This document shows positions 2,731-61,785 of a stretch of DNA of 64,000 nucleotides, in pieces (the stretch's first letter is position 1; the number at the start of each line of letters is the position of its first letter). The position numbers were made by a program, and so were the translations under genes. Under the pieces are notes generated by a model. It saw only the letters and a program-made list of their open reading frames with translations. It made no database searches and had not been told where the DNA came from. Source of the stretch: Gammaproteobacteria bacterium (GTDB lineage: Bacteria; Pseudomonadota; Gammaproteobacteria; GCA-001735895); contig JASFKL010000001.1 of the NCBI GenBank assembly GCA_050118655.1, positions 186 to 64,185 of the forward strand, read 5' to 3'.

Positions 2731-4500
2731 ATGTTTCCCATTTCGAAGCCCCTGCCCGGGGACCGTAATCTGTTGGCCTATCCGCTGTTCGCGCTGTTGG
2801 TGGCGGGATGCGCGAACCTGCAACCCGCGCCCGATGCCGGCGGAGCGGACGCGGAGCCGATCCGGGCTCAGGACGCAGGCGACAACAGGCAGCAAATTGA
2901 CTCGCGCCTCGATGCGGTGGCGCTGGCTTCGGCCGGCTCGGTATATGTCGCTTACGATTTCGATTTCGAAAGCCAGCTGAAAATGGCCGAGACAGAGGCC
3001 GCCGAAAGACAGCGCGCGGCCGAGGCCGAAGCCAGGGCGGAAGCGGAGATCGTCGCCGCGATCAAGGCGGACCTGGAAGCGACCCGCAAGAAACACGATG
3101 CCTGGCTCAGGCTGCAACAGGGCATGCAATTGTCCGAGGTCCACAATGAGCGCGTCAACGCCCAGCTCAAATGGTTCGTCGATCACCCCGGATACATGCA
3201 ACGCGTGATGGAGCGCGCCCGTCCGATCCTGCCGTTCGTGCTCGACGAGCTCGAAGCGCGCAACCTCCCCAGCGAACTGGCCCTGCTGCCGATCGTCGAG
3301 TCGGCTTACCAGGCATTCGCCTATTCCCACGGACGCGCCTCGGGCATGTGGCAAATCATCCCCTCGACCGGCCGCTTCCTCGGGCTCAAGCAAAACTGGT
3401 GGTACGACGGACGTCGAGACATCATCGAGTCGACGCGCGCGGCGATCAATTATCTGCAGCAGTTGTCGCAGGAATTCGACGGCGACTGGGAACTCGCGCT
3501 CGCGGCCTACAACGCGGGGCCCGGCAGGATCCGCAGCGCGGTTCGCTACAACCGCTATCGGGACCGGCCGACCGATTTCTGGAGTCTGACCCGTATTCGC
3601 AAGGAGACCCAGGCTTACGTGCCGAAGATGTTCGCGCTCAAGGAAATGTTTACTCATCCGGAGAAGTACCAGCTCGACCTGTTGCCGATCAACAACCAGG
3701 TCAGTTACGAAATCGTCGAGCTCGACGGCCAGATCGATCTCGCGCTGGCCGCGGACCTGGCCGGAATCTCGGTGAATCAACTCTATCAGTTGAACCCGGC
3801 CTTCAATCGCTGGGCGACCGCGCCCGACGGGCCGCATCGCCTGCTGCTGCCGCGCGGCAAGGCGGATCATTTCAGGCACGAAGTCTCCAAGGTACCGAGT
3901 ACCAAGCGCATCAACTGGGTGCGGCACAAGATCAAGAGCGGTGAAACGCTGAGTGAAATCTCGCGACACTACCGGACTTCGGTGGCGCTGATCAGGGAAG
4001 TCAACAATATCCGCGGCAGCCATATCCGCGCCGGCAAATACCTGATGGTTCCGACGGCCACCAAATCGCTGAGAACCTATACCCTGAGCGCGAGTTCGCG
4101 GCTGGCAGCCCTGCAGAACACCGACCGCGGCGGAACCCGCCAGGAGCACATCGTGCGTCCGGGACAGAGCCTGTGGAGCATCTCGCGGAGCTACGGCGTC
4201 ACCACGCGGGCGCTCGCCAAGTGGAACGGCATGGCGCCGATCGATACCCTGCAGGTGGGACAGAAGCTCGTCGTATGGACCAGCGCCCAGGCGCGCAAGG
4301 TCAGTATCAGTCAGACGCGGCCCAGTAACGCATTACACGCGCTGCGCTACACTGTCCGCAAGGGAGATTCACTGTATCTCATCGCGGATCGCTTCAATGT
4401 CAGCATCGCGGATATCAGGCGCTGGAACCGGCTCGGCAAATATTTGCATCCCGGGCAAAAAATCAAACTTTACGTCGACATCACCAGTCAGTCCGGCTAG
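2731..4500 (+). CDS. mltD: membrane-bound lytic murein transglycosylase D, lipoprotein with SLT domain and three C-terminal LysM repeats
   Basis: N-terminal lipobox LLVAGC; SLT catalytic region ESAYQAFAYSHGRASGMWQIIPSTGR; three LysM repeats (HKIKSGETLSEIS..., HIVRPGQSLWSIS..., YTVRKGDSLYLIA...). Confidence 0.9.
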   Translation: MFPISKPLPGDRNLLAYPLFALLVAGCANLQPAPDAGGADAEPIRAQDAGDNRQQIDSRLDAVALASAGSVYVAYDFDFESQLKMAETEAAERQRAAEAEARAEAEIVAAIKADLEATRKKHDAWLRLQQGMQLSEVHNERVNAQLKWFVDHPGYMQRVMERARPILPFVLDELEARNLPSELALLPIVESAYQAFAYSHGRASGMWQIIPSTGRFLGLKQNWWYDGRRDIIESTRAAINYLQQLSQEFDGDWELALAAYNAGPGRIRSAVRYNRYRDRPTDFWSLTRIRKETQAYVPKMFALKEMFTHPEKYQLDLLPINNQVSYEIVELDGQIDLALAADLAGISVNQLYQLNPAFNRWATAPDGPHRLLLPRGKADHFRHEVSKVPSTKRINWVRHKIKSGETLSEISRHYRTSVALIREVNNIRGSHIRAGKYLMVPTATKSLRTYTLSASSRLAALQNTDRGGTRQEHIVRPGQSLWSISRSYGVTTRALAKWNGMAPIDTLQVGQKLVVWTSAQARKVSISQTRPSNALHALRYTVRKGDSLYLIADRFNVSIADIRRWNRLGKYLHPGQKIKLYVDITSQSG

Positions 4501-4617
4501 ATCCGGCGCTGCCATGGCGTTGCCGCGAGAATTTGTCCGCAGGTAGTTGCTTTATCCCGACCCAGACGCCAAAATAGACTTTTACGTGCGAACGACGAAG
4601 GGTTCCCCAACAAGATT

Positions 4618-5673
4618 ATGAGCCTTGAAATTGATCCCAAACAAATAAAATCCTTCTCTCCGATCAATTCTCTGAATCCAGAAAACGCTCAAGAATTAGT
4701 CAACAAAATTACCGCTACCCCGATCCAGGCGGGCCACTATATCTTCAAGAAAGGTGATATGGACAAGGCGCACGTCTACGTGCTCTCGGGCGAAGTGGAG
4801 CTGGTGCAGGACAAAAAGGTGGTCAAGACCATCAAGGCGGGCTCCCCGGAAGGCATGCAACCGCTGGCGCACGGATTTCCCCGGCCGGTGTCGGCGCGCG
4901 CCAAGGTCGCCTCGGTGGTCACCAAGATCAACAGCGACATGCTCGACATCATGCTGACCTGGGACCAGTCGGGCAGTTACTCGGTAGAACCCGTCGACGA
5001 AGAAGACGAAGAAACCGACTGGATGACCCGCATCCTGCAAACCCGGGCCTTCCATCGCATTCCGCCGGCCAATATCCAGGCGATGTTCATGCGCATGGAA
5101 TCGGTCAGCTTCAAGCCCGGCGAGAAAGTGATCGAACAGGATGCCGAGGGCGATTATTTCTACATCATCAAGGAAGGCCGTTGCCTGGTCACCCGCTCCA
5201 CGCCGGCCAACCCGAATGGCGTCAAGCTGGCGACCCTGTCGGTGGGCGACAGTTTCGGCGAGGAAGCGCTGATCTCCGACAGCAAGCGCAACGCGACGAT
5301 CACGATGCTGTCCGAGGGGCATTTGATGCGCCTCAACAAGGAGGATTTCAACTCGCTGCTGAACGAACCGCTGCTCAACTGGGTCGATTACGACGAGGCC
5401 AGGAAACTGGTCGATGCGGGCGCCGTCTGGTTCGACGTACGCCTGCCTACCGAGCACAAGGCCAAGCACATCAAGGGCAGTATCAATATCCCGCTGATTT
5501 TCCTGCGCATGAAGGCCAATTCGCTCGATACCGAAAAGAAATACGTCATCTATTGCGATACCGGCCGGCGCAGCTCCGCGGCCTCTTTTCTACTCAACGA
5601 AAAGGATATCGAGACCTTCGTATTGCGCGACGGCGTCGATACCGCCGAGCCCTCCGACCTGGTTACCAGCTAA
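4618..5673 (+). CDS. signalling protein with two cyclic-nucleotide-binding (CAP effector) domains fused to a C-terminal rhodanese domain
   Basis: Two cNMP-binding cores are present (FKKGDMDKAHVYVLSGEVEL and FGEEALISDSKRNATITM, with the G-E-x-A-L...R-x-A-T phosphate-binding cassette). The C-terminus is a rhodanese with an intact catalytic loop, YCDTGRRSSAAS. Confidence 0.85.
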   Translation: MSLEIDPKQIKSFSPINSLNPENAQELVNKITATPIQAGHYIFKKGDMDKAHVYVLSGEVELVQDKKVVKTIKAGSPEGMQPLAHGFPRPVSARAKVASVVTKINSDMLDIMLTWDQSGSYSVEPVDEEDEETDWMTRILQTRAFHRIPPANIQAMFMRMESVSFKPGEKVIEQDAEGDYFYIIKEGRCLVTRSTPANPNGVKLATLSVGDSFGEEALISDSKRNATITMLSEGHLMRLNKEDFNSLLNEPLLNWVDYDEARKLVDAGAVWFDVRLPTEHKAKHIKGSINIPLIFLRMKANSLDTEKKYVIYCDTGRRSSAASFLLNEKDIETFVLRDGVDTAEPSDLVTS

Positions 5674-5702
5674 CGCGCCTCGACGCCGTCGGATCCCGCC
5701 GC

Positions 5703-7307
5703 TCAGCCGGCGTAGCCCGGGATTAGCGATTCGTCTATTTCGTCGATCTGCTCCGGATCGAGAAACTCCTCGGCGTAGTCGAGGTAAACCCGCTCGCGAA
5801 TGAAGATCTCGAAGATATCGGGATCGATGTGATTGTCCTTTTTCATGAATCCCATGATGCGCAGGCACTCGGACAGTTTCTTGCCATGCTTGTATGGCCG
5901 ATCGCTGGCGGTCAGGGCCTCGAAAATATCGGCCACCGCCATAATCCGGGCCTGTACCGACATTTCCTCCCTTTTGAGCCCGCGCGGGTATCCCGTGCCA
6001 TCCATTTTTTCATGATGTCCGCCGGCATACTCGGGTACGTTTTGCAAATTGCGGGGAAACGGCAGCGATTCCAGCATCTTGATGGTCGCGACGATATGGT
6101 TGTTGATGACTTCCCGCTCTTCATCGTTCAGCGTGCCGCGCTTGATACACAGGTTCATGACCTCGTCGTCGGTCAAAAGCGGCCGCGTCTCGCCGGACCC
6201 GTCCACCCATTCGAGCCCGGCGAGTTGCTTTACCCGGTCGATATCCTCGTCGCTCATGAATTCGCCGCCGACATTGGCCTTGCGCAAAAATTCGAAATCC
6301 TGCCGGTATTGCTCGCGACGGGATTCGAGATCCCTGTCCAGTTGTTCGACATCGGCCTTCGATCCGTTTGCCGCTAGACGTTTTTTCAAGTATTCGATTT
6401 CGGCGTCGCGCTGCAGGATCACGAAACGGGTTTCCAGCGCATTGATACGATCGTAAATCGTTTCCAGCTTGGTGGCCTTGTCCATCACGTACTCGGGGGT
6501 AACCACCTTGCCGCAATCGTGCAACCAGGCAGCGGTCTCGAGTTCGTAGCGATCCTTGTCGGTAATTCTGAAATCCTTCAGCGGCCCCTTGTCGTCCTGG
6601 TGCGCGGCCTCGGCAAGCATCATCGTCAATACCGGAATCCGCCGGCAATGACCGCCGGTATAGGGCGACTTGTCGTCGATCGCCGAGGCGATCATGCGGA
6701 TAAAAGATTCGAACAGGATTTGCAGTTCCGAGATCAGTCTCCGCTGGGTCAGCGCGACGGCTGCCTGGGAAGCCAGTGACTCGGCGAGTTGCTGTTCGAC
6801 GGCGCTGAAAACTTTGACCTCGCCGGTTTGCTCGTTCCTGGCATTGATCAATTGCAGCACGCCGATGATTTCCTTCTCGTGGTCCTTGAGCGGAAAGGTC
6901 AGCATGGAGCGGGTGCGGTAACCGGTCTTTTCGTCGAAGGCCCGCGTGCCCGAGAAATCGAAGCCGTCCTCGTTATAGGCGTCGGCAATGTTGATGGTTT
7001 CTCCGGACAGTACGCAGTGGGAGACGACGTTGGCATGGTTATCCTTGCCTTCGATCGACAGCGGTATCGCCGGAAAAGTGATTTCGTTACCCGAGGTACC
7101 GCCCATCTGTATATCGAGCGAATCGTTGGAAATGATCTCGAATCTGAGTTCGCCGTCGTTCAGAAAATACAGCGAGCCGCCATCCGCGTGGGTGAGCGAT
7201 TTTGCTCCCATCATGATCAGCTCGAGCAGCTTGGGCGTATCGTTTTCCGCCGACAGCGCGATGCCGATTTCATTTAACCGATCAATCCTGTCGAGCAATT
7301 CTGACAT
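5703..7307 (-). CDS. GAF-domain HD-GYP phosphodiesterase (predicted c-di-GMP hydrolase)
   Basis: N-terminal GAF region; HD motif in AAWLHDCGK; HD-GYP signature GGHHEKMDGTGYPRGL. Confidence 0.9.
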   Translation of the reverse strand: MSELLDRIDRLNEIGIALSAENDTPKLLELIMMGAKSLTHADGGSLYFLNDGELRFEIISNDSLDIQMGGTSGNEITFPAIPLSIEGKDNHANVVSHCVLSGETINIADAYNEDGFDFSGTRAFDEKTGYRTRSMLTFPLKDHEKEIIGVLQLINARNEQTGEVKVFSAVEQQLAESLASQAAVALTQRRLISELQILFESFIRMIASAIDDKSPYTGGHCRRIPVLTMMLAEAAHQDDKGPLKDFRITDKDRYELETAAWLHDCGKVVTPEYVMDKATKLETIYDRINALETRFVILQRDAEIEYLKKRLAANGSKADVEQLDRDLESRREQYRQDFEFLRKANVGGEFMSDEDIDRVKQLAGLEWVDGSGETRPLLTDDEVMNLCIKRGTLNDEEREVINNHIVATIKMLESLPFPRNLQNVPEYAGGHHEKMDGTGYPRGLKREEMSVQARIMAVADIFEALTASDRPYKHGKKLSECLRIMGFMKKDNHIDPDIFEIFIRERVYLDYAEEFLDPEQIDEIDESLIPGYAG

Positions 7308-7634
7308 CTACTGGCACCTGCCCCTCGCGGAGGCCGAGCTACGCGAGCTTCGAAAGTCGCTCTATTCTAGGTGAATCCCCGGGCATTTCAATTCCGGGCC
7401 GGTTAAATTTTTAACCCCAAGCACTGGTAAAAAAGCGCATTCAACCTTATAGTTTAGAGGCATCACGATTCATAAGAATACCGGGGGGGATCCAAGCTGT
7501 TAACCAGTTCAAGGTGTTCGCATAAACTATTGAATATTATACGAATCGGATTTCTTCATTTTCCGGTCGCACACCCAGTAAAGTACGACTATAACAAGCT
7601 GGGTGACTAATAAGAATCAAACTATGGAGACGGT

Positions 7635-10265
7635 ATGAAAACCCGTTTTTGGAGTAGCGACTGGTTCGCCGGGCTGCTGATTACCATCGTGATTGTGGCG
7701 GTCTCGGGTTCCGGCCCCTTCCAAAGCCTGGAGCGCTCGTTTTACGACTGGGGCGTGCGCTCGACCGACAGGACTCCCTCCGACAAGATTGCGATCATCG
7801 CCATCGACGACGAGAGTATCGACAACCTGGGCCGCTGGCCCTGGCCGCGCGACCTCCACGCCGAATTGATCAACCGGCTTTCCGAGGGCGGAGCCAAGGT
7901 CATCGGTCAAACCGTATTTTTCCTCGAACCCCAGGTCGATCCGGGGTTGACCTATATCCGCGAACTGATCGAGTTTTTCTCTACCGCGAGCTTCGGCGAC
8001 GTTCCCGCCGATATCGATGCGCTGGGCGCGATGCTGGAACTGGGCGGCAACAATCGCAAGATAAACGATATCCTCGAATTCTATCTCCAATCGAGCCTGA
8101 ATACGCGTCTCAACCAGGATATCGAAACCCTGAAATCCCGAATGTTCGAAGCCGAGCAGGCGCTCAACACCGACGCCAAGCTCGCCGAGAGCATGGAAAA
8201 AGCCAAGAACGTCGTGCTGGCGATGGTCTTTTACCTGGGCATCCCGCGCGGCAAGCCCGACGAGGAACTGCCCGACTACGTGCTGAAAAACTCGATCAGC
8301 CAGATCCGTGACCGCGTATCGGCACAACCCAACGGCCTGTTCCCGATTCCGACCATCGATGCGCTGACACCGATTCCGGAAATCGGCCGCTACGCGGCGG
8401 CGATCGGCCATCTCAATACCCTGCCCGATATCGACGGCGGGGTTCGTTCAGAGCCGCTGGTGCTGCAGTACTACGACCGCTTCTTCCCGTCGATATCGCT
8501 GCAAATCGCCGCGCGCAGCCTGAACCTCGACACCAACGACATCCGCGTCAATCTGGCGGAGAGCGTCGAACTCGGCAGTCTGGCAATCAAGACCGATACC
8601 CAGCTGCAGATGAATACCTTTTACTACTCGAATCGCGATGGTTTTCCGGCATTTCCGGTGGATTCGTTTTACGACGTATTCACCGGCAAGATTCCGATCG
8701 AAAAGTATCGCGGCAAGATCGTTTTGATCGGCCCCACCGCCACCGGCGTCGGTACGCCGCAGGTCACTCCCATCGATCCCGCAATGGCGCCGGTACTGAC
8801 GCTCGCACACTCGGTTTCGAGCATCCTCAAGGAGGATTTTTTCATCGAGCCCGAATGGGGCTTCTGGGCGCGCATGGGTACCTTCCTCGTGGTTGCGCTC
8901 TACCTGATGCTGCTGATGCCGCGGTTAAAGGCCGGTGTCGCTTTCGTGGTCACCACGGTGCTGGTGCTGGCACTGATCGCCACCCATTACATACTGATGA
9001 CCGGCAGCACGATGTGGATTCAGTTGATGACCCCGGGGGCCCTGCTGGTGATCGGTTACCTGTTGATCACCACCAAGAGATTCCTGGTCACCGAGCGCGG
9101 CAAGGCCAAATCCGACGTGGAATCGGCCGAGAGCAACCGGATGCTGGGTATCGCATTTCAAACCCAGGGTCAACTCGACATGGCGTTCGAAAAATTCCGC
9201 AAGTGCAGCCCGGTCGACGAACAGGTGCTCGAGGCGATGTACAACCTGGCGCTGGATTTCGAGCGCAAGCGGCAATTCAACAAGGCCACTTCGGTGTACC
9301 AGTACATGGCCAAGCACGACAAGAGCTTCCGTGATATCGAAACCCGTATGAACCGCGCGCAGAAGATGGAAGAAACCGTCATGCTCGGCGGTAGCGGCGG
9401 ACATGCGGGCGGCACCCTGCTGCTCGATGGCAGCGGTGTCGAAAAACCGATGCTGGGCCGTTACGAAGTCGAAAAGGAACTCGGCAAGGGCGCCATGGGT
9501 ATCGTCTACCTGGGCAAGGACCCCAAGATCAGCCGGGTCGTGGCGATCAAGACCATGGCCCTGGCGCAGGAGTTCGAAGCCGACGAACTCGACGAGGTCA
9601 AGGAGCGGTTCTTCCGCGAGGCGGAAACCGCGGGGCGCCTGAATCATCCCAATATCGTAACCATTTACGATGCCGGCGAGGAGCACGATCTCGCCTATAT
9701 CGCGATGGAATTTCTCAAGGGCTACGACCTTACGAAACACTGCAAGCCCGATAACCTGCTGGAAATGAATACCGTGGTCAGCATCGTCCAGCGCGCCGCC
9801 GAGGGCCTCGATTTCGCGCACCGGCAAAACGTCGTGCACCGCGATATCAAGCCGGCCAACATCATGTACGAGCCGGAATCGGATACCATCAAGATTACCG
9901 ATTTCGGTATCGCGAGAATTACCGATTCGAGCAAGACCAAGACCGGGATGGTACTCGGCACGCCCTCTTACATGTCTCCCGAACAACTGGCGGGCAAAAA
10001 AGTCGATGGACGTTCCGACCTGTTTTCACTCGGCGTCATGCTTTACCAGATGCTTTGCGGATCCCTGCCCTTCAAGGCGGATTCGATGGCCAGTCTGATG
10101 TTCAAGATCACCAACGAAGAGGCCCCGGACATTCGCAGCGTGCGCGAGGATATACCCCATGGCCTGGTCGAAGTAATCGCCTTGGCCATGACCAAGGATG
10201 CCGACCAGCGATATCAGACAGGAGCCGATTTTGCCAATGCATTGAAAGCATTTCTGAATAATTGA
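7635..10265 (+). CDS. CHASE2 sensor domain / TPR-like linker / Hanks-type Ser/Thr protein kinase (membrane-bound)
   Basis: N-terminal TM followed by a CHASE2 region (IAIDDESIDNLGRWPWPRD). Several TM helices follow (residues ~420-470), then TPR-like helices. The C-terminal kinase shows GKGAMGIVY, VAIK, HRDIKPAN, DFG and SPE motifs. An RBS (GGAGA) lies 5 nt upstream of the ATG. Confidence 0.9.
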   Translation: MKTRFWSSDWFAGLLITIVIVAVSGSGPFQSLERSFYDWGVRSTDRTPSDKIAIIAIDDESIDNLGRWPWPRDLHAELINRLSEGGAKVIGQTVFFLEPQVDPGLTYIRELIEFFSTASFGDVPADIDALGAMLELGGNNRKINDILEFYLQSSLNTRLNQDIETLKSRMFEAEQALNTDAKLAESMEKAKNVVLAMVFYLGIPRGKPDEELPDYVLKNSISQIRDRVSAQPNGLFPIPTIDALTPIPEIGRYAAAIGHLNTLPDIDGGVRSEPLVLQYYDRFFPSISLQIAARSLNLDTNDIRVNLAESVELGSLAIKTDTQLQMNTFYYSNRDGFPAFPVDSFYDVFTGKIPIEKYRGKIVLIGPTATGVGTPQVTPIDPAMAPVLTLAHSVSSILKEDFFIEPEWGFWARMGTFLVVALYLMLLMPRLKAGVAFVVTTVLVLALIATHYILMTGSTMWIQLMTPGALLVIGYLLITTKRFLVTERGKAKSDVESAESNRMLGIAFQTQGQLDMAFEKFRKCSPVDEQVLEAMYNLALDFERKRQFNKATSVYQYMAKHDKSFRDIETRMNRAQKMEETVMLGGSGGHAGGTLLLDGSGVEKPMLGRYEVEKELGKGAMGIVYLGKDPKISRVVAIKTMALAQEFEADELDEVKERFFREAETAGRLNHPNIVTIYDAGEEHDLAYIAMEFLKGYDLTKHCKPDNLLEMNTVVSIVQRAAEGLDFAHRQNVVHRDIKPANIMYEPESDTIKITDFGIARITDSSKTKTGMVLGTPSYMSPEQLAGKKVDGRSDLFSLGVMLYQMLCGSLPFKADSMASLMFKITNEEAPDIRSVREDIPHGLVEVIALAMTKDADQRYQTGADFANALKAFLNN

Positions 10266-10279
10266 GCCCAGACTGTTTG

Positions 10280-11104
10280 ATGAATTTGCAAAACAAGATA
10301 ACCATCCAGGGCCTGACTGACACGGGGATAGTGCGCGGCAAGAACGAGGACGCGATCGGTTATGACAGCGCGCTGGGTCTCGTGGTTCTCGCCGATGGCA
10401 TGGGAGGTCATCGCGGCGGCGAAATAGCCAGCAGTATGACCGTCGATACGGTTATCAATCTCCTGCAGCAGCGGCTGCCGGAAATCAACTCCGGCGACGT
10501 CGACGAAGCCAGTGGATTTTCGATGGAGTCGATTTGTATCCAGGATGCCGTGGTCGCGGCCAACGAACTGGTCTACAAGACCGCCGAGGCCAATCCCGAA
10601 CACAAGGGAATGGGCACCACGATCGTGGTATTGCAGTTCTACAACAATTCCTTCTCCCTCGCCCATATCGGCGACTCGCGCTGTTATCGTCTGCGCAATG
10701 ACAAGCTCGAACAGATTACCAAGGATCACTCCCTGTTACAGGAACTCATCGACCGCGGCTTCTATACGCCCGAAGAAGCGCGCAATTCGATGAACAAGAA
10801 TCTCGTGACGCGTGCCCTGGGCATCGATCCGATCGTCATGCCGGACATACAGGAGGATATAGTCCTGAAAAATGACATATATTTGCTATGTTCAGATGGG
10901 TTAACGGATTTAGTCGAAGACGAAGATATATACTTAACTATTAAGCAATTTAGTGCTAATCTAGAAGAAGCTGCCAAGCAATTGATTACAAAGGCAAACC
11001 AGAATGGCGGAAAGGATAATATTTCGGTAATGCTGTGCCGGATTGACGATGATTTTTCGTCCCGGCAAGGCTGGTTCAACAAGATTGTCGGCTGGTTCGA
11101 CTAA
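10280..11104 (+). CDS. PP2C-family Ser/Thr protein phosphatase
   Basis: Translation TDTGIVRGKNEDA...VLADGMGGHRGGEIAS...GDSRCYRL...LCSDGLTD shows PP2C motifs. I set the start at the ATG at 10280, 15 nt after the kinase stop; the ORF-track TTG at 10262 would overlap the kinase stop. Confidence 0.88.
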   Translation: MNLQNKITIQGLTDTGIVRGKNEDAIGYDSALGLVVLADGMGGHRGGEIASSMTVDTVINLLQQRLPEINSGDVDEASGFSMESICIQDAVVAANELVYKTAEANPEHKGMGTTIVVLQFYNNSFSLAHIGDSRCYRLRNDKLEQITKDHSLLQELIDRGFYTPEEARNSMNKNLVTRALGIDPIVMPDIQEDIVLKNDIYLLCSDGLTDLVEDEDIYLTIKQFSANLEEAAKQLITKANQNGGKDNISVMLCRIDDDFSSRQGWFNKIVGWFD

Positions 11105-11150
11105 CGGATTACACACCCAGTACAAACTACTCTACAGGCTGGATAATAAA

Positions 11151-11873
11151 ATGGTCGCAAAACTGATCACTACTTCAAGCACGGGCGAAAAAACCGAGTA
11201 TGAACTGGTCAATGAAACCACCACGATTGGGCGTAAGCCGGGTAACGATATTCAAATCGATAATCTGTCAGTCAGCGGCAGGCATGCGCAGGTAATCACC
11301 ATCCTCGAAGATTCATTTCTGGAAGATCTCGGCAGCACCAACGGCACTTACGTCAACGGCAAACTGGTAAAAAAACACGCGCTCGAAGACGGCGACAGTA
11401 TCACCCTGGGCAAGTATCAAATCACCTACCAGAATAACTCCGGCGGCGGTGAACAGGATTTCGAACAAACCATGATTATCCGCCCCGGCGAAGCGGGCAT
11501 GCCCGAAGAAGCCGGCAGCAAGGAAATCGACAAGTCGGTGCAAAAAATTTCAGCGGCGATCGCCTCGGAGGCAGCCAGCACAGCCTCGTCGCCGATGTCT
11601 AACAAGGAAGCCTGCCTGCAATTGCTCAGCGGCGCCAACGCCGGCAAGGAGCTGGTATTGACCAAGGCCCTGACCACCATCGGCCAGCCGGGTGTGCAGG
11701 TGGCGGCGATCACCCGCCGTCCGCAAGGCTTTTTCCTGATTCACGTCGATGGCGGCCCGAACAACAATGTCCCGAAAGTCGGCGGCTCGGAGATCGGCTC
11801 GAACGCGCACGAACTCAAGAGCCACGACATTATCGAAGTAGCCGGCGTAAAAATGGAGTTCTACCTCAAATAA
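11151..11873 (+). CDS. FHA-domain protein (N-terminal canonical FHA plus C-terminal FHA-like domain)
   Basis: N-terminal FHA signature TIGRKPGNDIQIDNLSVSGRHAQV...GSTNGTYVNG. C-terminal second domain TTIGQPGVQVAAITRRPQGFFLIHVDGGPNNNVPKVGGSEIGSNAHELKSHDIIEVAGVKMEF. I set the start at the internal ATG at 11151. Confidence 0.8.
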   Translation: MVAKLITTSSTGEKTEYELVNETTTIGRKPGNDIQIDNLSVSGRHAQVITILEDSFLEDLGSTNGTYVNGKLVKKHALEDGDSITLGKYQITYQNNSGGGEQDFEQTMIIRPGEAGMPEEAGSKEIDKSVQKISAAIASEAASTASSPMSNKEACLQLLSGANAGKELVLTKALTTIGQPGVQVAAITRRPQGFFLIHVDGGPNNNVPKVGGSEIGSNAHELKSHDIIEVAGVKMEFYLK

Positions 11874-11913
11874 AGCCGTTCCTGCTCGTCCGCATTGAAA
11901 CCGGGGGCAAACA

Positions 11914-14145
11914 ATGCAATTACAGCGCATAGTCAGGCTGGTGCTTAGCGCACTGATCCTGCTGGTCATCCTGCTCGACACCTCCGGAGTTTACAAGTAT
12001 CCATTCATCAAGCAGCTGGAAAACTGGACTTACGACGCGCGGCTGAACTTTACCCGTCCCGATACCGTCGACGATCGCGTGGTTATCGTCGATATCGACG
12101 AAACCTCGCTCGCCGAGGTCGGCCGCTGGCCCTGGGGTCGCGACCAGCTCGCGCGCATCGTCGACAACCTGTTCGACTTTTACGGGGCCGACGTGGTCGC
12201 CTTCGATATCGTATTCGCCGAAAAAGACGAGAGCTCCGGACTGGAACAGTTCGAGCAGCTGGCGCGAACCACGTTGCGCGGCGACGAGGAATATATCGAG
12301 GCGCTCGATAAGATCCGGCCGAGCCTCAAACACGACGAAATTTTCGCGCAGAGCCTGGTCGGTAAAAACGTCGTTCTCGGCTATTACTTCAAGTCCAGGT
12401 TGCAGGAAGGAGAAAGCGGTGTCACCGGCCTCCTGCCCCCCGCATTGACCAGGATGGACAGGCAGTGGAGCGAACGCCTGCCGATCAACAAGGCGGTAGG
12501 CTACGGCGGCAACCTGGAAATACTGCAAACCTCGGCACGCTCCGGCGGCTACTTCGACAACCCCTTCGTCGATGCCGACGGCGTATTTCGCCGCGTGCCG
12601 CTGGTGCAGTCCTACCAGGGCTACCTGTTCGCCTCGCTGGCTCTCGCCACTACCCAGGCGTATCTCGACGCCGACGGTATCGAGCTGGCGATCGAAACCG
12701 AGGGAACGCGCGGCGAGAACGAATATTTCGCGCTGGAGACGATTAACCTGAAGAATCACAAGATTCCCGTGGACGCCAACGGCGCGGTGTTCGTGCCCTA
12801 CCGCGGCAGGCAGGGAAGCTTTCCCTATATCCCCGCCCACGAAGTGCTGAGCCGCAAGACCAACCCGCTGGCGCTAAAGAACAAGATCGTACTGATCGGC
12901 ACCTCGGCACCGGGCCTGCTCGACCTGCGCTCTACTCCAGTACAAAACATTTATCCCGGGGTCGAGGTCCATGCCAATATCATTTCCGGCATCCTCGACG
13001 ATCGTATCAAGCACAAGCCGGCCTGGACGGTGGGTTACGAACTCGTGTTACTGATAGTCATCGCGGTCAGCATGGCCTTGCTGTTGCCGCTGGTTTCGCC
13101 GCTGCTGGCGGCGACCGGGACGCTCGGGATTACCGGCCTGGTGGTCGCCGGAACCTTCGTCGCCTGGAACAACAACCTGATCCTGCCGCTGGCGAGCCCG
13201 CTGCTGCTGATTCTGTTGCTGTTCATGCTGCACATGTCCTACGGATTCTTCATCGAGTCCCGTGGCAAGCGGCAGCTCGCTAACCTGTTCGGGCACTACA
13301 TACCGCCCGAACTGGTCGACGAGATGAGCGAATCGCCCGAGGAATATTCGCTCGAGGGCGAGAACCGTGAAATGACCGTGCTGTTTTCGGACGTGCGCGG
13401 ATTCACGTCGATCTCGGAAGGCATGGACCCGAAACAGTTGACCCAGCTCATGAACGCGCTGTTGACGCCGATGACGCGCGTCATCCACAAGAACCGGGGT
13501 ACGATAGACAAGTACATGGGAGATGCCATCATGGCCTTCTGGGGCGCGCCGCTGGCCAATGCCGAGCATGCCCGGCACGCGCTCTATGCCGCACTCCAGA
13601 TGATGGAAGAACTGAAGATAATGCAGGAAGACTTCAAGCAACGCGGCTGGCCGACGGTCAACATCGGTATCGGCTTGAACACCGGCGACATGAACGTCGG
13701 CAACATGGGATCGGAATTCCGCATGGCTTATACCGTGCTCGGCGACGCGGTCAACCTGGGTTCGAGGCTCGAGGGCCTGACCAAGGAATACGGCGTCAAC
13801 ATCATCGTCAGCGAATCCACCAAGGCGGCGATACCCGAATTCGTATTCCGAGAACTCGACCTGGTCAGGGTGAAAGGCAAGAACGAACCGGTCGCAATTT
13901 TCGAACCGGTCGGGCACAAAAACGATCTCGACAAGTCGGTCACCTCGGAGATCAGCGAATACCGCAAGGCATTGATGAACTTTCGCTCCCAGTCCTGGGA
14001 CAAGGCCGAGCTCGATTTCTTCAACCTCAACCGCATCAACCCGGACCGGCAGCTATACCAGGTCTACCTCGAACGTATCGCGGTCTACCGCAGGGAGCCG
14101 CCCGGAGAGGGCTGGGACGGCGTTTTTACGCACACCACGAAGTAA
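11914..14145 (+). CDS. CHASE2 sensor domain / class III nucleotidyl (adenylate/guanylate) cyclase, membrane-bound
   Basis: CHASE2 region (VVIVDIDETSLAEVGRWPWGRD) is paralogous to that of the kinase. TM helices follow (residues ~370-440). The cyclase catalytic domain shows FSDVRGFT, KYMGDAIMAFWGAP and GDAVNLGSRLE. Confidence 0.9.
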   Translation: MQLQRIVRLVLSALILLVILLDTSGVYKYPFIKQLENWTYDARLNFTRPDTVDDRVVIVDIDETSLAEVGRWPWGRDQLARIVDNLFDFYGADVVAFDIVFAEKDESSGLEQFEQLARTTLRGDEEYIEALDKIRPSLKHDEIFAQSLVGKNVVLGYYFKSRLQEGESGVTGLLPPALTRMDRQWSERLPINKAVGYGGNLEILQTSARSGGYFDNPFVDADGVFRRVPLVQSYQGYLFASLALATTQAYLDADGIELAIETEGTRGENEYFALETINLKNHKIPVDANGAVFVPYRGRQGSFPYIPAHEVLSRKTNPLALKNKIVLIGTSAPGLLDLRSTPVQNIYPGVEVHANIISGILDDRIKHKPAWTVGYELVLLIVIAVSMALLLPLVSPLLAATGTLGITGLVVAGTFVAWNNNLILPLASPLLLILLLFMLHMSYGFFIESRGKRQLANLFGHYIPPELVDEMSESPEEYSLEGENREMTVLFSDVRGFTSISEGMDPKQLTQLMNALLTPMTRVIHKNRGTIDKYMGDAIMAFWGAPLANAEHARHALYAALQMMEELKIMQEDFKQRGWPTVNIGIGLNTGDMNVGNMGSEFRMAYTVLGDAVNLGSRLEGLTKEYGVNIIVSESTKAAIPEFVFRELDLVRVKGKNEPVAIFEPVGHKNDLDKSVTSEISEYRKALMNFRSQSWDKAELDFFNLNRINPDRQLYQVYLERIAVYRREPPGEGWDGVFTHTTK

Positions 14146-14151
14146 TACCGT

Positions 14152-15390
14152 TTACCAGCAGGCGCGTAATTCCCGCGCCAGTATGCCGACGCCTTTTTCG
14201 AGTTCCTCCTCGCTCTGCGCATAGTTCATGCGCACGCAACTCTCGGCGTGCGCGGACACGTTCTGCTGCCCGGGAAAGAAGTACTTGCCAGGCACGACCA
14301 GTAAACCGTTGCGCTTGAGCCGCTGGTAGAGTTCGGTAGTGGTCACGCCGAGATCTTCGAACCACAGCCACAGGAACATCGATCCCTCGGGTTTGTGGAT
14401 GTGCAGCCGCGGATCCTCGATCGCCTCGCGCAGCAGCCTGACCGCGAGTTCCGAGCGCTGCAGGTAAAACGGCCGGATGATATCGTCGCAAAGCGGTTGC
14501 AGGGCATCGTCGACGATCAGCTGGCGGACGATTTCGGCGCCGAGACCCGCCGGCGCGAGGCTGGTTATCGCGGTCATGTTGGAAAAATAGCGAATCAACT
14601 CCTCGTTGGCGATCACGATCCCGGTACGCGCGCCGGGCAACCCGAGCTTCGACAGGCTCATGCAAACGATGCAGTTATCGTTCCAGAAGGGATTGACGCC
14701 GGTGAATATGATGTTCGGGAAAGGCGTGCCGTAGGCATTGTCGATCAACAGCGGAACGTCGTGGTCGCGGGCGATCTGGTCGAGTTGCCCGCACTCGGCG
14801 TCGGTGAGCACGTTGCCGCTCGGATTGGTAGGCCGAGAAACGCAAATCAGGCCCACGGAATCGTCGGCCTCGAGCTGCTCGAAGTCGACCTGGTACTTGA
14901 AAAACCCGTCATCGAGGTGCTGAATCCTGGCCTCCTGGCTGGCGAGCAATCCCTCTTCGATACCGACGTCGCAGTAGCCGATATACTCGGGCACCAGCGG
15001 GATCAGAACGCGTTTACGGCCTTGCCTCGAGCGGCCGGCAAAAGAATTGAATAGAATGAAGAACGAACTCTGGCTACCGTGGGTCAAGGCGATATTGCGG
15101 CTGCTGATCGGCCAGCCGTAACGATCCCGGAAGTACTCGGCCAGCGCTTCGAGAAAGCCCGCCCTGCCCTGCGGCGCATCGTAGTTGGAAAGCGCCTCGA
15201 CCAGGGCGCCCGATTCCCGCAGTTTGTCGAGCACCTGGCCCACTATCTTCTTGACCTCGGGGATCGAAGCGGGATTGCCGCCGCCGAGCATGACCACGCC
15301 GGGTTGCGCGAGACCCTCGCTCAAATCGTCCATCAGGTGGGTAATACCGGAGTAACCGTTGAAATGTTCGCCGAATTCAGAAAATTTCAT
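14152..15390 (-). CDS. avtA: valine-pyruvate aminotransferase (aminotransferase class I/II)
   Basis: N-terminus MKFSEFGEHFNGYSGITHLMDDLSEGL...MLGGGNPASIPE resembles the E. coli AvtA N-terminus from memory. A PLP-lysine region SLSKLGLPGARTG is present. Confidence 0.85.
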   Translation of the reverse strand: MKFSEFGEHFNGYSGITHLMDDLSEGLAQPGVVMLGGGNPASIPEVKKIVGQVLDKLRESGALVEALSNYDAPQGRAGFLEALAEYFRDRYGWPISSRNIALTHGSQSSFFILFNSFAGRSRQGRKRVLIPLVPEYIGYCDVGIEEGLLASQEARIQHLDDGFFKYQVDFEQLEADDSVGLICVSRPTNPSGNVLTDAECGQLDQIARDHDVPLLIDNAYGTPFPNIIFTGVNPFWNDNCIVCMSLSKLGLPGARTGIVIANEELIRYFSNMTAITSLAPAGLGAEIVRQLIVDDALQPLCDDIIRPFYLQRSELAVRLLREAIEDPRLHIHKPEGSMFLWLWFEDLGVTTTELYQRLKRNGLLVVPGKYFFPGQQNVSAHAESCVRMNYAQSEEELEKGVGILARELRACW

Positions 15391-60877: not shown

Positions 60878-61113
60878 CGAGTCTCCGGACGGGAGGCTGA
60901 CGACGGACAGCCGCCGACTGCGCCTCCGGTTAACATGACTGTTTTCGAAACCTGGAATTCTAAAGCAAATCCCGGATTCGCGCAGCTTTCGATCGCGCAC
61001 CGACAAGACGCGATAGACGAAAACAAAAGGCCCTGCCCCCGAATCGGCGCGGATGAATTCGACCGTCGCCATGTTATCCTTCGTTATTACGGTCCTGGTA
61101 ACGAGGAATTGAA

Positions 61114-61785
61114 ATGACCCTGTCCATCGCCGCGTGGGACGAACGGAGCGGCCAGCTCGGCGCGGCAATCGCCTCGTCGAGCATCAGCGTCGCCGCGCGC
61201 TGCCTGCACTGGCGCTCCGGCGTCGGCATCGCGCTGAGCCAGAATATCACCGACCCGAGGCTCGGCCCGCGCCTGCTCGCGCTGCTCGCCGACGGCGTCG
61301 ATGCGAATGCCGCGATGGACGCCGTCAGGCACAGCACGCCCCATATCGCCTATCGACAGCTCGGCCTCGTCGACAATACTGGAAATACCAGCCGGTTCAC
61401 GGGTGACGCGGTACTCGGCTGCTTCGCTTCGGGCGAGGGCAGGCACTGCGTGGCCGTCGGCAACCTGCTCGAAAACGACGGCGTTCCCGCGGCCATGATC
61501 CGCGCCTTCGAACAGGCTTCGGGTTCCCTCGGCGCGCGCCTGCTCGAAGCGCTGCGAGCCGGTGCCGAGGCCGGCGGAGAAGCGGGTCCTCTGCACTCGG
61601 CGGGACTGCTCCTCGGCGGCGAACCGAGCTGGCCGCTGGCGGAACTGCGCATCGACTGGAGCCCGGACCCGATCGCCGCCATAGTCGAGGGATGGGCGGT
61701 CTACGAACCGCAAATCGACGACTATGTGCTGCGCGCCTACAACCCCGTCGAGGCACCGTCTTACGGTGTACCGGGGGACCCTTAA
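61114..61785 (+). CDS. DUF1028-family (Ntn-hydrolase-like) protein
   Basis: Translation MTLSIAAWDERSGQLGAAIASSSISVAARC begins with the DUF1028 signature MT(F/L)SI(V/A)A, which has an N-terminal nucleophile-like Thr/Ser. Confidence 0.7.
   Translation: MTLSIAAWDERSGQLGAAIASSSISVAARCLHWRSGVGIALSQNITDPRLGPRLLALLADGVDANAAMDAVRHSTPHIAYRQLGLVDNTGNTSRFTGDAVLGCFASGEGRHCVAVGNLLENDGVPAAMIRAFEQASGSLGARLLEALRAGAEAGGEAGPLHSAGLLLGGEPSWPLAELRIDWSPDPIAAIVEGWAVYEPQIDDYVLRAYNPVEAPSYGVPGDP

What the first reader, a model, noticed from the sequence alone, without database searches (positions are those of the whole stretch)
4618..5673. Unusual fusion: two CAP-type cNMP-binding domains followed by a catalytically intact rhodanese domain
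Both cNMP cassettes retain the phosphate-binding Arg/Thr-Ala motif (RNATITM). The rhodanese loop CDTGRRS keeps the active-site Cys. A cyclic-nucleotide-gated sulfurtransferase or phosphatase-like output is uncommon. It could be the receptor for the product of the cyclase encoded 6 kb downstream.
Basis: seen in the sequence. Interest (0 to 1): 0.6.

Follow-up and report, generated by a model that had tools for sequence, protein, structure and literature searches.

The report
cAMP-binding rhodanese protein, stand-alone form
The gene is real and encodes a soluble protein with one degenerate and one intact cyclic-nucleotide-binding domain joined to a rhodanese domain that keeps its catalytic cysteine. 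It belongs to a large, never-studied family of environmental sulfur-oxidising Gammaproteobacteria, so the fusion is uncharacterised rather than rare.

Summary
The ORF at 4618-5673 (+, 351 aa) is real. Pfam finds two cNMP_binding domains and one Rhodanese domain, and dN/dS against eight orthologues is about 0.04-0.11.

Only the second domain (CNB2) has a canonical phosphate-binding cassette (FGE...RNATITM). The first (CNB1) keeps the Arg but has Met for the ribose-binding Glu and Pro-Val for [ST]-Ala. This degeneracy holds across the family.

The rhodanese loop CDTGRRS aligns without gaps with PspE's CNAGRQS. It is the six-residue sulfurtransferase type, not the Cdc25 type. The Cys is present in 140 of 144 family representatives.

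The fusion is not rare. There are 1321 clusters (50% identity) with E<1e-30. Most top hits carry the same 345-aa module at the N-terminus of 1200-1800-aa proteins that continue as coiled coil, one membrane helix and an FGE-sulfatase domain.

The downstream CHASE2 cyclase has Lys/Thr specificity residues, so it is predicted to make cAMP. It is syntenic only within this clade. The nearest outgroups keep MltD, GAF-HD-GYP, CHASE2-kinase, PP2C and FHA but have no cyclase.

Best reading: a non-CRP cAMP effector whose CNB2 gates or positions a persulfide-carrying rhodanese. Nothing has been tested biochemically. I class it as a new variant of a known kind.

The parts
4618..5673 (+). Gene for the 351-aa CNB1(degenerate)-CNB2-rhodanese protein. 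It is soluble, with no hydrophobic segment.
   Evidence: ORF. Pfam cNMP_binding x2 plus Rhodanese. 100% identical database entry P0001 named 'cyclic nucleotide-binding domain-containing protein'. dN/dS 0.04-0.11. Maximum 19-residue hydropathy 0.87.
4675..4968 (+). CNB1 (residues about 20-117): cNMP-binding fold with a degenerate phosphate-binding cassette.
   Evidence: Pfam 39 bits when scanned alone. AF2 beta-barrel with pLDDT about 83-96. dN/dS 0.09-0.17, the least constrained of the three domains but still under purifying selection.
4840..4902 (+). CNB1 cassette GSPEGMQPLAHGFPRPVSARA. Arg89 is kept, Glu is replaced by Met80, and [ST]-Ala by Pro90-Val91.
   Evidence: Translation. Gapless alignment to PfPKG CNB-D. 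In the family, position 80 is R/K/L and never E, positions 90-91 are Q/P/K followed by L/V/F, and R89 is present in 137/144.
4969..5016 (+). Acidic linker (residues 118-133, SGSYSVEPVDEEDEET), predicted disordered.
   Evidence: pLDDT below 50 for residues 118-133. Variable in length and sequence in alignment A1.
5017..5373 (+). CNB2 (residues 134-252): canonical cNMP-binding domain and the most constrained part of the protein.
   Evidence: Pfam 64.9 bits when scanned alone. The best PDB sequence and fold matches are CNB domains of PKG and PKA-R. dN/dS 0.01-0.03 in seven of the eight comparisons and 0.085 in the eighth.
5254..5304 (+). CNB2 phosphate-binding cassette FGEEALISDSKRNATIT.
   Evidence: Translation. 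G214 and E215 in 144/144, R224 in 141/144, N225 in 130/144 and A226 in 135/144 representatives.
5383..5637 (+). Rhodanese domain (residues 256-340), joined to the CNB2 C-helix by about 5 residues.
   Evidence: Pfam Rhodanese 51.9 bits. PDB sequence hits are the CoADR rhodanese domain and PspE. CNB2-Rhd modelled alone gives pLDDT 91.7 and pTM 0.76.
5554..5574 (+). Active-site loop C313-DTGRR-S319, the six-residue sulfurtransferase type.
   Evidence: Translation. Gapless alignment with PspE yCNAGRQS and CoA-persulfide reductase sCHSGLRS. Cys in 140/144 and Ser319 in 139/144 representatives.
2731..4500 (+). Upstream neighbour: MltD-type lytic transglycosylase (SLT + 3 LysM), 117 bp before the gene.
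   Evidence: Pfam. Adjacency is kept in nearly all of the related loci that extend upstream of the gene and in the outgroups L080 and L081.
5703..7307 (-). Convergent neighbour: GAF-HD-GYP protein (HD_5), with its stop codon 29 bp from the target's stop.
   Evidence: Pfam. Kept in L080 and L081. Lost or truncated in about a dozen related loci, including L003, L006, L016, L018, L022, L028, L029 and L052.
7635..11873 (+). CHASE2-Ser/Thr kinase (7635-10265), PP2C phosphatase (10262-11104) and FHA protein (11043-11873).
   Evidence: Pfam. Syntenic in the clade and in the 54-56% outgroups L080 and L081.
11914..14145 (+). CHASE2-class III nucleotidyl cyclase, predicted to be an adenylyl cyclase (Lys in GTIDKYMGD, Thr in AYTVLGD).
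   Evidence: Pfam. Best PDB hit is P. aeruginosa CyaB 3r5g, E 1.4e-35. In the alignment the query has Lys where the Cya2 sequence 2w01 has Glu (gtidEfmgd). Present in about 34 related loci but absent from L080 and L081.

Best explanation
The gene encodes a cytoplasmic cAMP effector that is not a CRP-type transcription factor. CNB2 is proposed to bind the cyclic nucleotide through its canonical cassette (Gly214-Glu215 ... Arg224-Asn-Ala). Its C-terminal helix (residues 241-252) runs into the rhodanese domain after a five-residue linker, so ligand-driven movement of that helix would change the exposure or partner access of Cys313. Cys313 sits in a PspE-type six-residue loop able to carry a persulfide. 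CNB1 is tethered by a disordered acidic linker. It has lost the ribose-binding Glu and the [ST]-Ala of its cassette, so it probably acts as a regulatory or docking domain rather than as a second canonical nucleotide site. In this organism, a relative of the sulfur-oxidising gamma-3 symbiont of Olavius algarvensis, the likeliest local nucleotide source is the CHASE2 adenylyl cyclase at 11914-14145.

Shown: the domain identities, the motif states, their conservation, purifying selection and the family distribution.

Inferred: nucleotide binding, sulfur transfer, the coupling between them, and the link to this particular cyclase.
For: Domains: Pfam cNMP_binding x2 and Rhodanese, each above the curated cut-off when scanned alone. 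Fold matches are tandem CNB domains of PKA-R and PKG.

CNB2 cassette: invariant or nearly so in 144 representatives (G214/E215 144/144, R224 141/144), and dN/dS 0.01-0.03 in seven of eight comparisons, 0.085 in the eighth.

Rhodanese: the loop aligns without gaps to PspE and to CoA-persulfide reductase rhodanese domains. Cys313 is present in 140/144 and D273 and R275 are conserved. dN/dS is 0.025-0.07.

Tight CNB2-Rhd unit: the linker EPLL is short and conserved. The two-domain model gives pLDDT 91.7 and pTM 0.76, against pTM 0.49 for the full length.

Not a transcription factor: no HTH domain, and the CRP/FNR NCBIfam model scores 15.9 bits against a cut-off of 274.

Cyclase: Lys/Thr specificity residues and CyaB as the best PDB hit. 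It is syntenic in about 34 related loci.

Lineage: the gamma-3 symbiont is a sulfur oxidiser (PMC4744751). Its scaffold carries a 90% identical orthologue in the same gene order (L047).
Against: There is no biochemical evidence of any kind.

Specificity for cAMP or cGMP cannot be read from the RNAT cassette.

Four long-form representatives lack the Cys (P0210, P0216, P0223, P0235), so the module can persist without catalysis.

No sulfur-metabolism gene is a conserved neighbour in any context examined. No other rhodanese, CNB or FGE gene lies in the 64-kb window.

The cyclase is absent from the otherwise identical neighbourhood of the nearest outgroups.

In most family members the module is the tip of a giant membrane-anchored coiled-coil protein. 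That fits a localisation or scaffolding role at least as well as an enzymatic one.
Confidence: 0.45

Rival explanations
1. The module is a signalling or localisation adaptor and not an enzyme. The rhodanese cysteine acts as a sensor (persulfidation or oxidation reports sulfide or redox state), CNB2 senses cAMP, and the output is a change in protein-protein interaction. In the long forms the module sits at the end of a coiled-coil tether of about 860 residues anchored in the inner membrane. The short form would be a soluble derivative that docks on partners such as the neighbouring kinase/PP2C/FHA or GAF-HD-GYP proteins.
For: Among the 150 best representatives, 62 are long forms with an FGE-sulfatase domain. 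In 61 of those 62 a single hydrophobic segment lies about 80 residues before that domain, and the middle region is 67% A/E/L/Q/R/K. Four long forms lack the Cys. MltD, GAF-HD-GYP and CHASE2-STK/PP2C/FHA remain adjacent even in the 54-56% outgroups, whereas the cyclase does not. No sulfur-enzyme partner is conserved nearby.
Against: The Cys and the whole CxxGxRS loop are conserved in 97% of representatives and are under strong purifying selection. That is typical of catalytic rhodaneses, although it also fits a sensing Cys. Synteny with the kinase cluster sits inside a larger syntenic housekeeping block (mutS ... dnaQ-rnhA-mltD), so it may be inherited rather than functional. In clades at 57-59% and 43% identity the gene lies in unrelated contexts.
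Confidence: 0.3
2. It is a constitutive housekeeping rhodanese. The CNB domains are structural relics that no longer bind nucleotide, so there is no regulation by cNMP.
For: CNB1 is clearly degenerate. The gene usually stands alone beside housekeeping clusters.
Against: CNB2 is the most constrained domain, with dN/dS 0.01-0.03 in seven of eight comparisons. Every canonical ligand-contact residue is invariant or nearly so across 144 divergent representatives. That is hard to explain without ligand binding.
Confidence: 0.08
3. It is a Cdc25/Acr2-like phosphatase or arsenate reductase gated by cNMP.
For: Rhodanese and Cdc25 share a fold, and the gene lies next to a Ser/Thr kinase/PP2C/FHA cluster.
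Against: The active-site loop has six residues (C-DTGRR-S) and aligns without gaps to PspE CNAGRQS. Cdc25 and Acr2 use a seven-residue CX5R loop (Bordo & Bork 2002, as cited in PMC2887360). The matching NCBIfam models are all sulfurtransferase types: PspE, ThiI-C, MoeB, GlpE.
Confidence: 0.04
4. It is a CRP/FNR-type transcription factor, as the JGI label 'CRP-like cAMP-binding protein' suggests.
For: Source names. Weak matches to CRP-family structures over the CNB domain only.
Against: There is no HTH domain in Pfam. The CRP/FNR NCBIfam model scores 15.9 bits against a cut-off of 274 and covers only residues 160-221. The C-terminus is a rhodanese domain.
Confidence: 0.02

Closest known systems
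Mycobacterial cAMP-gated protein acetyltransferase (MtPat / KATmt, Rv0998: CNB domain fused to a GNAT enzyme)
   Same: A bacterial CNB domain joined directly to an enzyme-type domain rather than to a DNA-binding domain. The NCBIfam Pat model matches residues 145-252, which is CNB2 (E 2.4e-09). It serves as the mechanistic template: ligand binding moves the CNB C-terminal helix or lid and releases the catalytic domain. That mechanism is from my own knowledge and from Nambi et al. 2012 as cited in PMC11139211.
   Different: The output domain is a rhodanese, not a GNAT. The domain order is CNB followed by enzyme, with an extra degenerate CNB in front. The whole-protein score is far below the family cut-off (36.5 against 460 bits), so this protein is not a member.
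Tandem CNB-A/CNB-B of PKA regulatory subunits and PKG
   Same: These are the best sequence and fold matches: E 9e-27 to Plasmodium PKG and Foldseek E about 1e-19 to PKA-R and PKG tandem CNB structures. They also have two CNB domains in tandem.
   Different: No kinase domain, inhibitor sequence or dimerisation/docking domain is present. CNB1 is degenerate. The two CNB domains are separated by a disordered acidic linker instead of being packed together (full-length pTM 0.49).
P. aeruginosa CbpA (a polar cAMP-binding protein with a degenerate N-terminal and a functional C-terminal CNB domain; Endoh & Engel 2009, cited in PMC11139211)
   Same: A non-CRP cAMP effector in a gammaproteobacterium. As I recall it, it has the same pattern of a degenerate first CNB and a canonical second CNB. 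The paper itself was not held.
   Different: CbpA has no rhodanese domain.
Single-domain rhodaneses PspE and GlpE, and the C-terminal rhodanese domains of CoA-disulfide and CoA-persulfide reductases
   Same: Same fold and the same six-residue loop type (CDTGRRS against PspE CNAGRQS and CoAPR CHSGLRS), aligned without gaps. The DVR...E and N-IPL motifs are conserved.
   Different: Scores lie well below the equivalog cut-offs (PspE 39 against 102 bits, GlpE 15.2 against 102). Here the domain is fused to CNB domains, and the protein is cytoplasmic whereas PspE is periplasmic.
Long-form relatives annotated 'SUMF1/EgtB/PvdO family nonheme iron enzyme' (CNB-CNB-Rhd, coiled coil, TM, FGE-sulfatase; for example MBZ0070909.1 = P0127)
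   Same: The N-terminal 345 residues are 40-51% identical over their full length. They share the degenerate CNB1, the canonical CNB2 and the CDTGRRS loop.
   Different: The window protein ends after the rhodanese domain. It has no coiled coil, TM segment or FGE domain. The short forms fall mostly into one neighbour-joining clade. The long forms sit in a different conserved context, GspA-GspB-TerB-HU | gene | ... DjlA.

Membership tests
cNMP-binding domain (PF00027): CNB2, residues 134-252 | Profile match above the curated threshold, and a beta-barrel fold with flanking helices | tested here: met
   64.9 bits against a cut-off of 27.5 when scanned alone. AF2 pLDDT is above 90 over the barrel. 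Foldseek matches PKA and PKG CNB domains.
cNMP-binding domain (PF00027): CNB2, residues 134-252 | Phosphate-binding cassette with Gly-Glu (ribose 2'-OH contact) and Arg-[STAN]-Ala (phosphate contact) | tested here: met
   FGEEALISDSKRNATIT. G/E in 144/144, R in 141/144 and A in 135/144 representatives.
cNMP-binding domain (PF00027): CNB2, residues 134-252 | Actual binding of cAMP or cGMP, and which of the two | not testable with these tools
   This needs ITC, fluorescence or a similar method with the purified protein.
cNMP-binding domain (PF00027): CNB1, residues 20-117 | Profile match above the curated threshold | tested here: met
   39.0 bits against a cut-off of 27.5 when scanned alone. PDB hit to PfPKG CNB-D with E 3.4e-13.
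cNMP-binding domain (PF00027): CNB1, residues 20-117 | Canonical phosphate-binding cassette (Gly-Glu ... Arg-[ST]-Ala) | tested here: not met
   G79-M80 ... R89-P90-V91. In the family, position 80 is never Glu and position 91 is L/V/F/M. Only the Arg is retained.
Rhodanese-type sulfurtransferase (PF00581; PspE/GlpE-like single domain) | Rhodanese fold, shown by a profile match above threshold | tested here: met
   48.2-51.9 bits against a cut-off of 22.2.
Rhodanese-type sulfurtransferase (PF00581; PspE/GlpE-like single domain) | Catalytic Cys at the start of a six-residue active-site loop | tested here: met
   C313-DTGRR-S319 aligns without gaps with PspE C-NAGRQ-S. Cys is present in 140/144 representatives.
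Rhodanese-type sulfurtransferase (PF00581; PspE/GlpE-like single domain) | Sulfane-sulfur transfer activity, or persulfide formation on the Cys | not testable with these tools
   This needs a thiosulfate:cyanide assay or mass spectrometry.
PspE and GlpE equivalogs (NCBIfam) | Whole-protein score above the equivalog cut-off | tested here: not met
   PspE 39 against 102 bits, TIGR02981 36.3 against 126.3, GlpE 15.2 against 102.
Cdc25 / Acr2 phosphatase-type rhodanese | Seven-residue CX5R loop (CE[F/Y]SXXR in Cdc25) | tested here: not met
   The loop has six residues, CDTGRR. The motif definition is taken from PMC2887360 citing Bordo & Bork 2002.
CRP/FNR transcription factors | C-terminal helix-turn-helix DNA-binding domain | tested here: not met
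   No HTH family appears in the Pfam scan even at E up to 1. The CRP/FNR NCBIfam model scores 15.9 against 274 bits.
Family 2B encapsulin shell protein (CNB insertion) | HK97-fold shell protein, with a score above the equivalog cut-off | tested here: not met
   40.6 against 400 bits. The match covers only residues 151-250, which is CNB2.
PKA regulatory subunit | Tandem CNB-A/B plus an inhibitor/pseudosubstrate site and an N-terminal dimerisation/docking domain | tested here: inconclusive
   The tandem CNB fold is matched. There are only about 20 residues before CNB1, which leaves no room for a docking domain. No RRxS-type inhibitor site was looked for systematically.
Long-form CNB-CNB-Rhd / coiled-coil / TM / FGE-sulfatase proteins | Shared N-terminal three-domain module with degenerate CNB1, canonical CNB2 and a CxxGxRS loop | tested here: met
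   40-51% identity over residues about 5-345, with shared motif states.
Long-form CNB-CNB-Rhd / coiled-coil / TM / FGE-sulfatase proteins | Coiled-coil region, a single TM segment and a C-terminal FGE-sulfatase domain | tested here: not met
   The protein ends at residue 351, and a convergent gene starts 29 bp later. There is no FGE-sulfatase match anywhere in the window and no hydrophobic segment.

The most novel reading that the evidence does not exclude
The CNB(degenerate)-CNB-rhodanese cassette is a widespread, undescribed coincidence sensor of environmental sulfur-oxidising Gammaproteobacteria. It would integrate cAMP (at CNB2) with sulfane-sulfur or persulfide status (at Cys313). In its commoner long form it sits at the tip of a coiled-coil tether of about 860 residues, anchored in the inner membrane with a periplasmic FGE-like domain. 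The stand-alone form in this window would be a soluble derivative that connects a CHASE2 adenylyl cyclase, a Ser/Thr-kinase/PP2C/FHA module and a GAF-HD-GYP protein to sulfur trafficking. It would be a new class of bacterial non-CRP cAMP effector.
Probability: 0.2. Interest if true: 0.75.

Novelty: new variant of a known kind. Interest (0 to 1): 0.5.

Why it matters
Outside CRP-type regulators, few bacterial cAMP effectors are known. A 2024 review states that cAMP acts through CRP in most bacteria and names CbpA as an exception (PMC11139211).

Here a CNB domain with a fully canonical and extremely constrained binding site is fused to an intact rhodanese. The family has more than a thousand sequence clusters, in lineages that include sulfur-oxidising symbionts and sediment bacteria.

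If nucleotide binding controls the rhodanese cysteine, second-messenger signalling would be linked directly to sulfur trafficking or persulfide signalling in organisms that live on reduced sulfur. The 351-aa soluble form in this window is the most tractable member for testing that. The giant membrane-anchored relatives raise a separate question about what a tethered cAMP/rhodanese head does.

Tried and rejected
1. Literature. Four of the seven searches or reads were aimed at the fusion: 'cyclic nucleotide-binding' + rhodanese + FGE-sulfatase, cNMP + rhodanese, and cAMP-binding + 'rhodanese domain', plus a reading of the myxobacterial phosphatome paper. They found no description of a CNB-rhodanese fusion. 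The only co-mentions concern family 2B encapsulins and their operons, which are unrelated apart from the CNB domain. The CbpA paper (PMC2786554) is not held.

2. A profile search with a mixed short-form and long-form alignment mostly returned the window's own clade again and added little.

3. Promoter and terminator scan of 4300-7800. Nothing exceeded the shuffle expectation near the gene, so the transcription unit is undetermined.

4. Search for a separately encoded coiled-coil/TM/FGE partner, or a second CNB or rhodanese gene, in the window. None was found. The 1204-aa ORF at 38804-42418 is a FimV homologue, not a relative.

5. Guilt by association. No conserved sulfur-metabolism partner appears in any of the five contexts examined.

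6. Readings rejected on tested features: a CRP-type regulator, an encapsulin and a Cdc25-like phosphatase.

7. Nucleotide specificity of CNB2. The RNAT cassette does not map cleanly onto known cAMP or cGMP determinants, so I left it open.
Full report
**Observation**

The window has an ATG-to-stop ORF of 351 codons exactly at 4618-5673 on the + strand.
- Pfam assigns two cNMP_binding stretches and one Rhodanese domain.
- Each third of the protein, scanned alone, still passes the curated threshold: residues 36-109 score 39.0 bits for cNMP_binding, the middle third 64.9 bits, and the C-terminal third 51.9 bits for Rhodanese.
CDTGRRS is at nt 5554-5574 and the cassette ending in RNATIT at nt 5254-5304.
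- The gene is not a chance ORF. An identical protein and more than 100 clusters at 84-99% identity are in the protein collection.
- 72 genome loci encode relatives.
- Nei-Gojobori dN/dS against eight orthologues is 0.04-0.11. dS is about 1-2 and near saturation, so these values are approximate.

RNATITM occurs once, not twice. The first domain's cassette is GSPEGMQPLAHGFPRPVSARA.

A gapless alignment to the cGMP-binding CNB-D of Plasmodium PKG gives these correspondences:
- G79-M80 on the Gly-Glu pair
- P88-R89 on Pro-Arg
- P90-V91 on Thr-Ala

CNB1 therefore keeps the phosphate-binding Arg. It has lost the ribose-binding Glu and the small [ST]-Ala pair.

This is a family trait and not a local mutation. 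In 144 representatives the Glu position is R/K/L and never E, the +1/+2 positions are Q/P/K followed by L/V/F, and the Arg is kept in 137/144.

CNB1 is not decaying, since its dN/dS is 0.09-0.17. It is the least constrained of the three domains.

**CNB2 and the rhodanese domain**

CNB2 is canonical and extremely constrained.
- G214 and E215 are present in 144/144 representatives, R224 in 141/144 and A226 in 135/144.
- dN/dS is 0.01-0.03 in seven of the eight comparisons and 0.085 in the eighth.

The rhodanese domain aligns without gaps to PspE (yCNAGRQS), to a CoA-disulfide reductase rhodanese domain and to a CoA-persulfide reductase domain (sCHSGLRS).
- The loop is the six-residue sulfurtransferase type. 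It is not the seven-residue CX5R loop of Cdc25 (motif as quoted in PMC2887360).
- Cys313 is present in 140/144 representatives. The four exceptions are all long forms.

**Structure**

AlphaFold2 on a 31-sequence alignment gives pLDDT 82.8 but pTM 0.49. The acidic linker at residues 118-133 is disordered. Foldseek's best matches are the tandem CNB domains of PKA regulatory subunits and PKG.

CNB2-Rhd modelled alone gives pLDDT 91.7 and pTM 0.76. This fits a defined two-domain unit joined by the short conserved EPLL linker, with CNB1 flexibly tethered. I could not inspect coordinates, so the geometry of Cys313 relative to the CNB2 lid is unknown.

**The family is large and mostly long-form**

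The exhaustive search of cluster representatives found 1321 proteins with E<1e-30. Nearly all of the 150 best match over almost the whole of the query. The main exceptions are two multi-CNB giants (P0131, P0251) and a few truncated or N-terminally extended entries.

Only 28 of the 150 are shorter than 400 aa. The long forms have these features:
- 62 carry a C-terminal FGE-sulfatase domain, including 54 of the 57 proteins of 1300-2000 aa.
- The region between the module and that domain has a median length of about 860 residues. It is 67% A/E/L/Q/R/K with about 1% Pro, which is coiled-coil-like.
- 61 of the 62 have one hydrophobic segment about 80 residues before the FGE domain.

The implied topology is a cytoplasmic CNB-CNB-Rhd head, a long coiled coil, one membrane pass and a periplasmic FGE-like domain.

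NCBI names these proteins 'SUMF1/EgtB/PvdO family nonheme iron enzyme'. The named sources are Thiohalobacteraceae, Thiogranum and hydrothermal-vent metagenomes.

In a neighbour-joining tree, 25 of the 28 short forms fall in one 33-leaf clade, 19 of them in a purely short-form subclade that contains the query. The stand-alone form is therefore a distinct subfamily and not an assembly artefact.

**Genomic context**

Gene order in the window:

| Coordinates | Strand | Product |
|---|---|---|
| 757-1539 | - | DnaQ-like exonuclease |
| 1901-2665 | - | Methyltransferase |
| 2731-4500 | + | MltD |
| 4618-5673 | + | The gene |
| 5703-7307 | - | GAF-HD-GYP |
| 7635-10265 | + | CHASE2-Ser/Thr kinase |
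| 10262-11104 | + | PP2C |
| 11043-11873 | + | FHA protein |
| 11914-14145 | + | CHASE2-class III cyclase |
| 14152-15390 | - | Aminotransferase |

This order is kept in more than 50 related MAG loci (with the cyclase itself in about 34), including the Olavius algarvensis gamma-3 symbiont scaffold, which carries a 90% identical orthologue. That symbiont is a sulfur oxidiser (PMC4744751).

The cyclase has Lys in GTIDKYMGD, where the Cya2 sequence 2w01 has Glu in the same alignment, and Thr in AYTVLGD. Its best PDB hit is P. aeruginosa CyaB. From established knowledge of class III cyclases, a Lys/Thr pair predicts an adenylyl cyclase of subclass IIIb.

The linkage to the cyclase is shallow.
- The two nearest outgroups (54% and 56% identical) keep mutS ... 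dnaQ-rnhA-MTase-MltD, the gene, GAF-HD-GYP and CHASE2-STK-PP2C-FHA. After FHA they have other genes and no cyclase.
- A clade at 57-59% identity has the gene between a thioesterase gene and tatD-pilZ-holB-tmk-mltG.
- A clade at 43% identity has it between guaA-tadA-mltF and an aldo-keto reductase gene.
- The long forms sit in GspA-GspB-TerB-HU | gene | ... DjlA.

No partner is conserved across these contexts. The association with the kinase/PP2C/FHA and HD-GYP genes lies inside a larger syntenic housekeeping block.

**Mechanism**

My preferred reading (0.45) is a non-CRP cAMP effector. Nucleotide binding to CNB2 would move its C-terminal helix and change the exposure or partner access of the persulfide-carrying Cys313. 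CNB1 would act as a regulatory or docking domain. The closest mechanistic precedent is the mycobacterial CNB-GNAT acetyltransferase.

The main rival (0.30) treats the module as a sensor or adaptor rather than an enzyme.
- For it: the long-form architecture, the four Cys-less members and the lack of any sulfur-enzyme neighbour.
- Against it: nothing decisive. A sensing Cys would be conserved as well.

I reject a relic-CNB rhodanese, a Cdc25-like phosphatase and a CRP-type regulator on tested features.

**Novelty and score**

The architecture is already annotated automatically, for example by JGI as 'CRP-like cAMP-binding protein/rhodanese-related sulfurtransferase'. I found no paper describing it.

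It is a new variant of a known kind, namely a CNB-regulated non-transcriptional effector. The window copy is an ordinary, well-conserved member of its family.

Interest is moderate (0.5). It is uncharacterised, sits in sulfur-oxidising lineages and has striking giant relatives. The short soluble form makes the link between cAMP and sulfur directly testable.

Noticed in passing
L077:9001-14016, L078:9001-13656, L079:9001-13299 (and P0124, P0127, P0129, P0137, P0147 and others): Giant relatives of 1200-1800 aa with this layout: CNB-CNB-Rhd head, about 860 residues of coiled-coil-like sequence, one hydrophobic segment, and a C-terminal FGE-sulfatase domain. They are named 'SUMF1/EgtB/PvdO family nonheme iron enzyme' and lie in a conserved context, GspA-GspB-TerB-HU | gene | ... 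ABC transporter ... DjlA. Their function is unknown.
   Followed up: partly
window 7635-14145 (+): A four-gene signalling cluster: CHASE2-Ser/Thr kinase, PP2C, FHA protein and a CHASE2-adenylyl-type class III cyclase. The kinase, PP2C and FHA genes are kept in outgroups at 54-56% identity (L080, L081) without the cyclase. In some close relatives the kinase is reduced to a fragment or missing (L016, L018, L027, L028, L029).
   Followed up: partly
window 5703-7307 (-): A GAF-HD-GYP protein convergent with the target, with stop codons 29 bp apart. It is lost or reduced to a fragment in about a dozen related loci (including L003, L006, L016, L018, L022, L028, L029, L052) and kept in L080 and L081. 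Whether its GAF domain binds a cyclic nucleotide was not examined.
   Followed up: no
window 2731-4500; L064:5721-7229; L073:13916-14926; L075:13957-14958: Three different lytic transglycosylases lie beside or near the CNB-Rhd gene in three otherwise unrelated contexts: MltD here and in L080/L081, MltF in L064 (and probably in L067, judged from a similar ORF layout only), and MltG/YceG four genes away in L073 and L075. This may only reflect insertion next to housekeeping clusters.
   Followed up: no
L063:9956-11368, L066:9956-11209, L062:1687-3084: Intermediate-length homologues (417-470 aa, about 43% identical) with a C-terminal extension beyond the rhodanese domain. L063 has a TerB-DnaJ (DjlA-like) gene downstream, as the long-form loci do. 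That suggests truncated derivatives of the long form.
   Followed up: no
window 38804-42418 (-): A 1204-aa FimV homologue (FimV_N domain, E 3.6e-37). It sits in a housekeeping region that also holds ppiD, lon, clpX, tig, cysS, purF, a Mur-ligase/FolC-like gene and an aconitase-family gene.
   Followed up: no
window 61087-62919 (-): A 610-aa ORF with no Pfam match at E<=1e-5.
   Followed up: no
window 10262-11104 and 11043-11873 (+): The PP2C and FHA ORFs, as listed mechanically, overlap by 62 nt. The true FHA start is probably a downstream start codon. The homologues in L080 and L081 are 234-238 aa, against 276 aa here.
   Followed up: no
L077:14604-16657: Directly downstream of one long-form gene lie a stand-alone 144-aa rhodanese gene and a GGDEF protein gene.
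   Followed up: no
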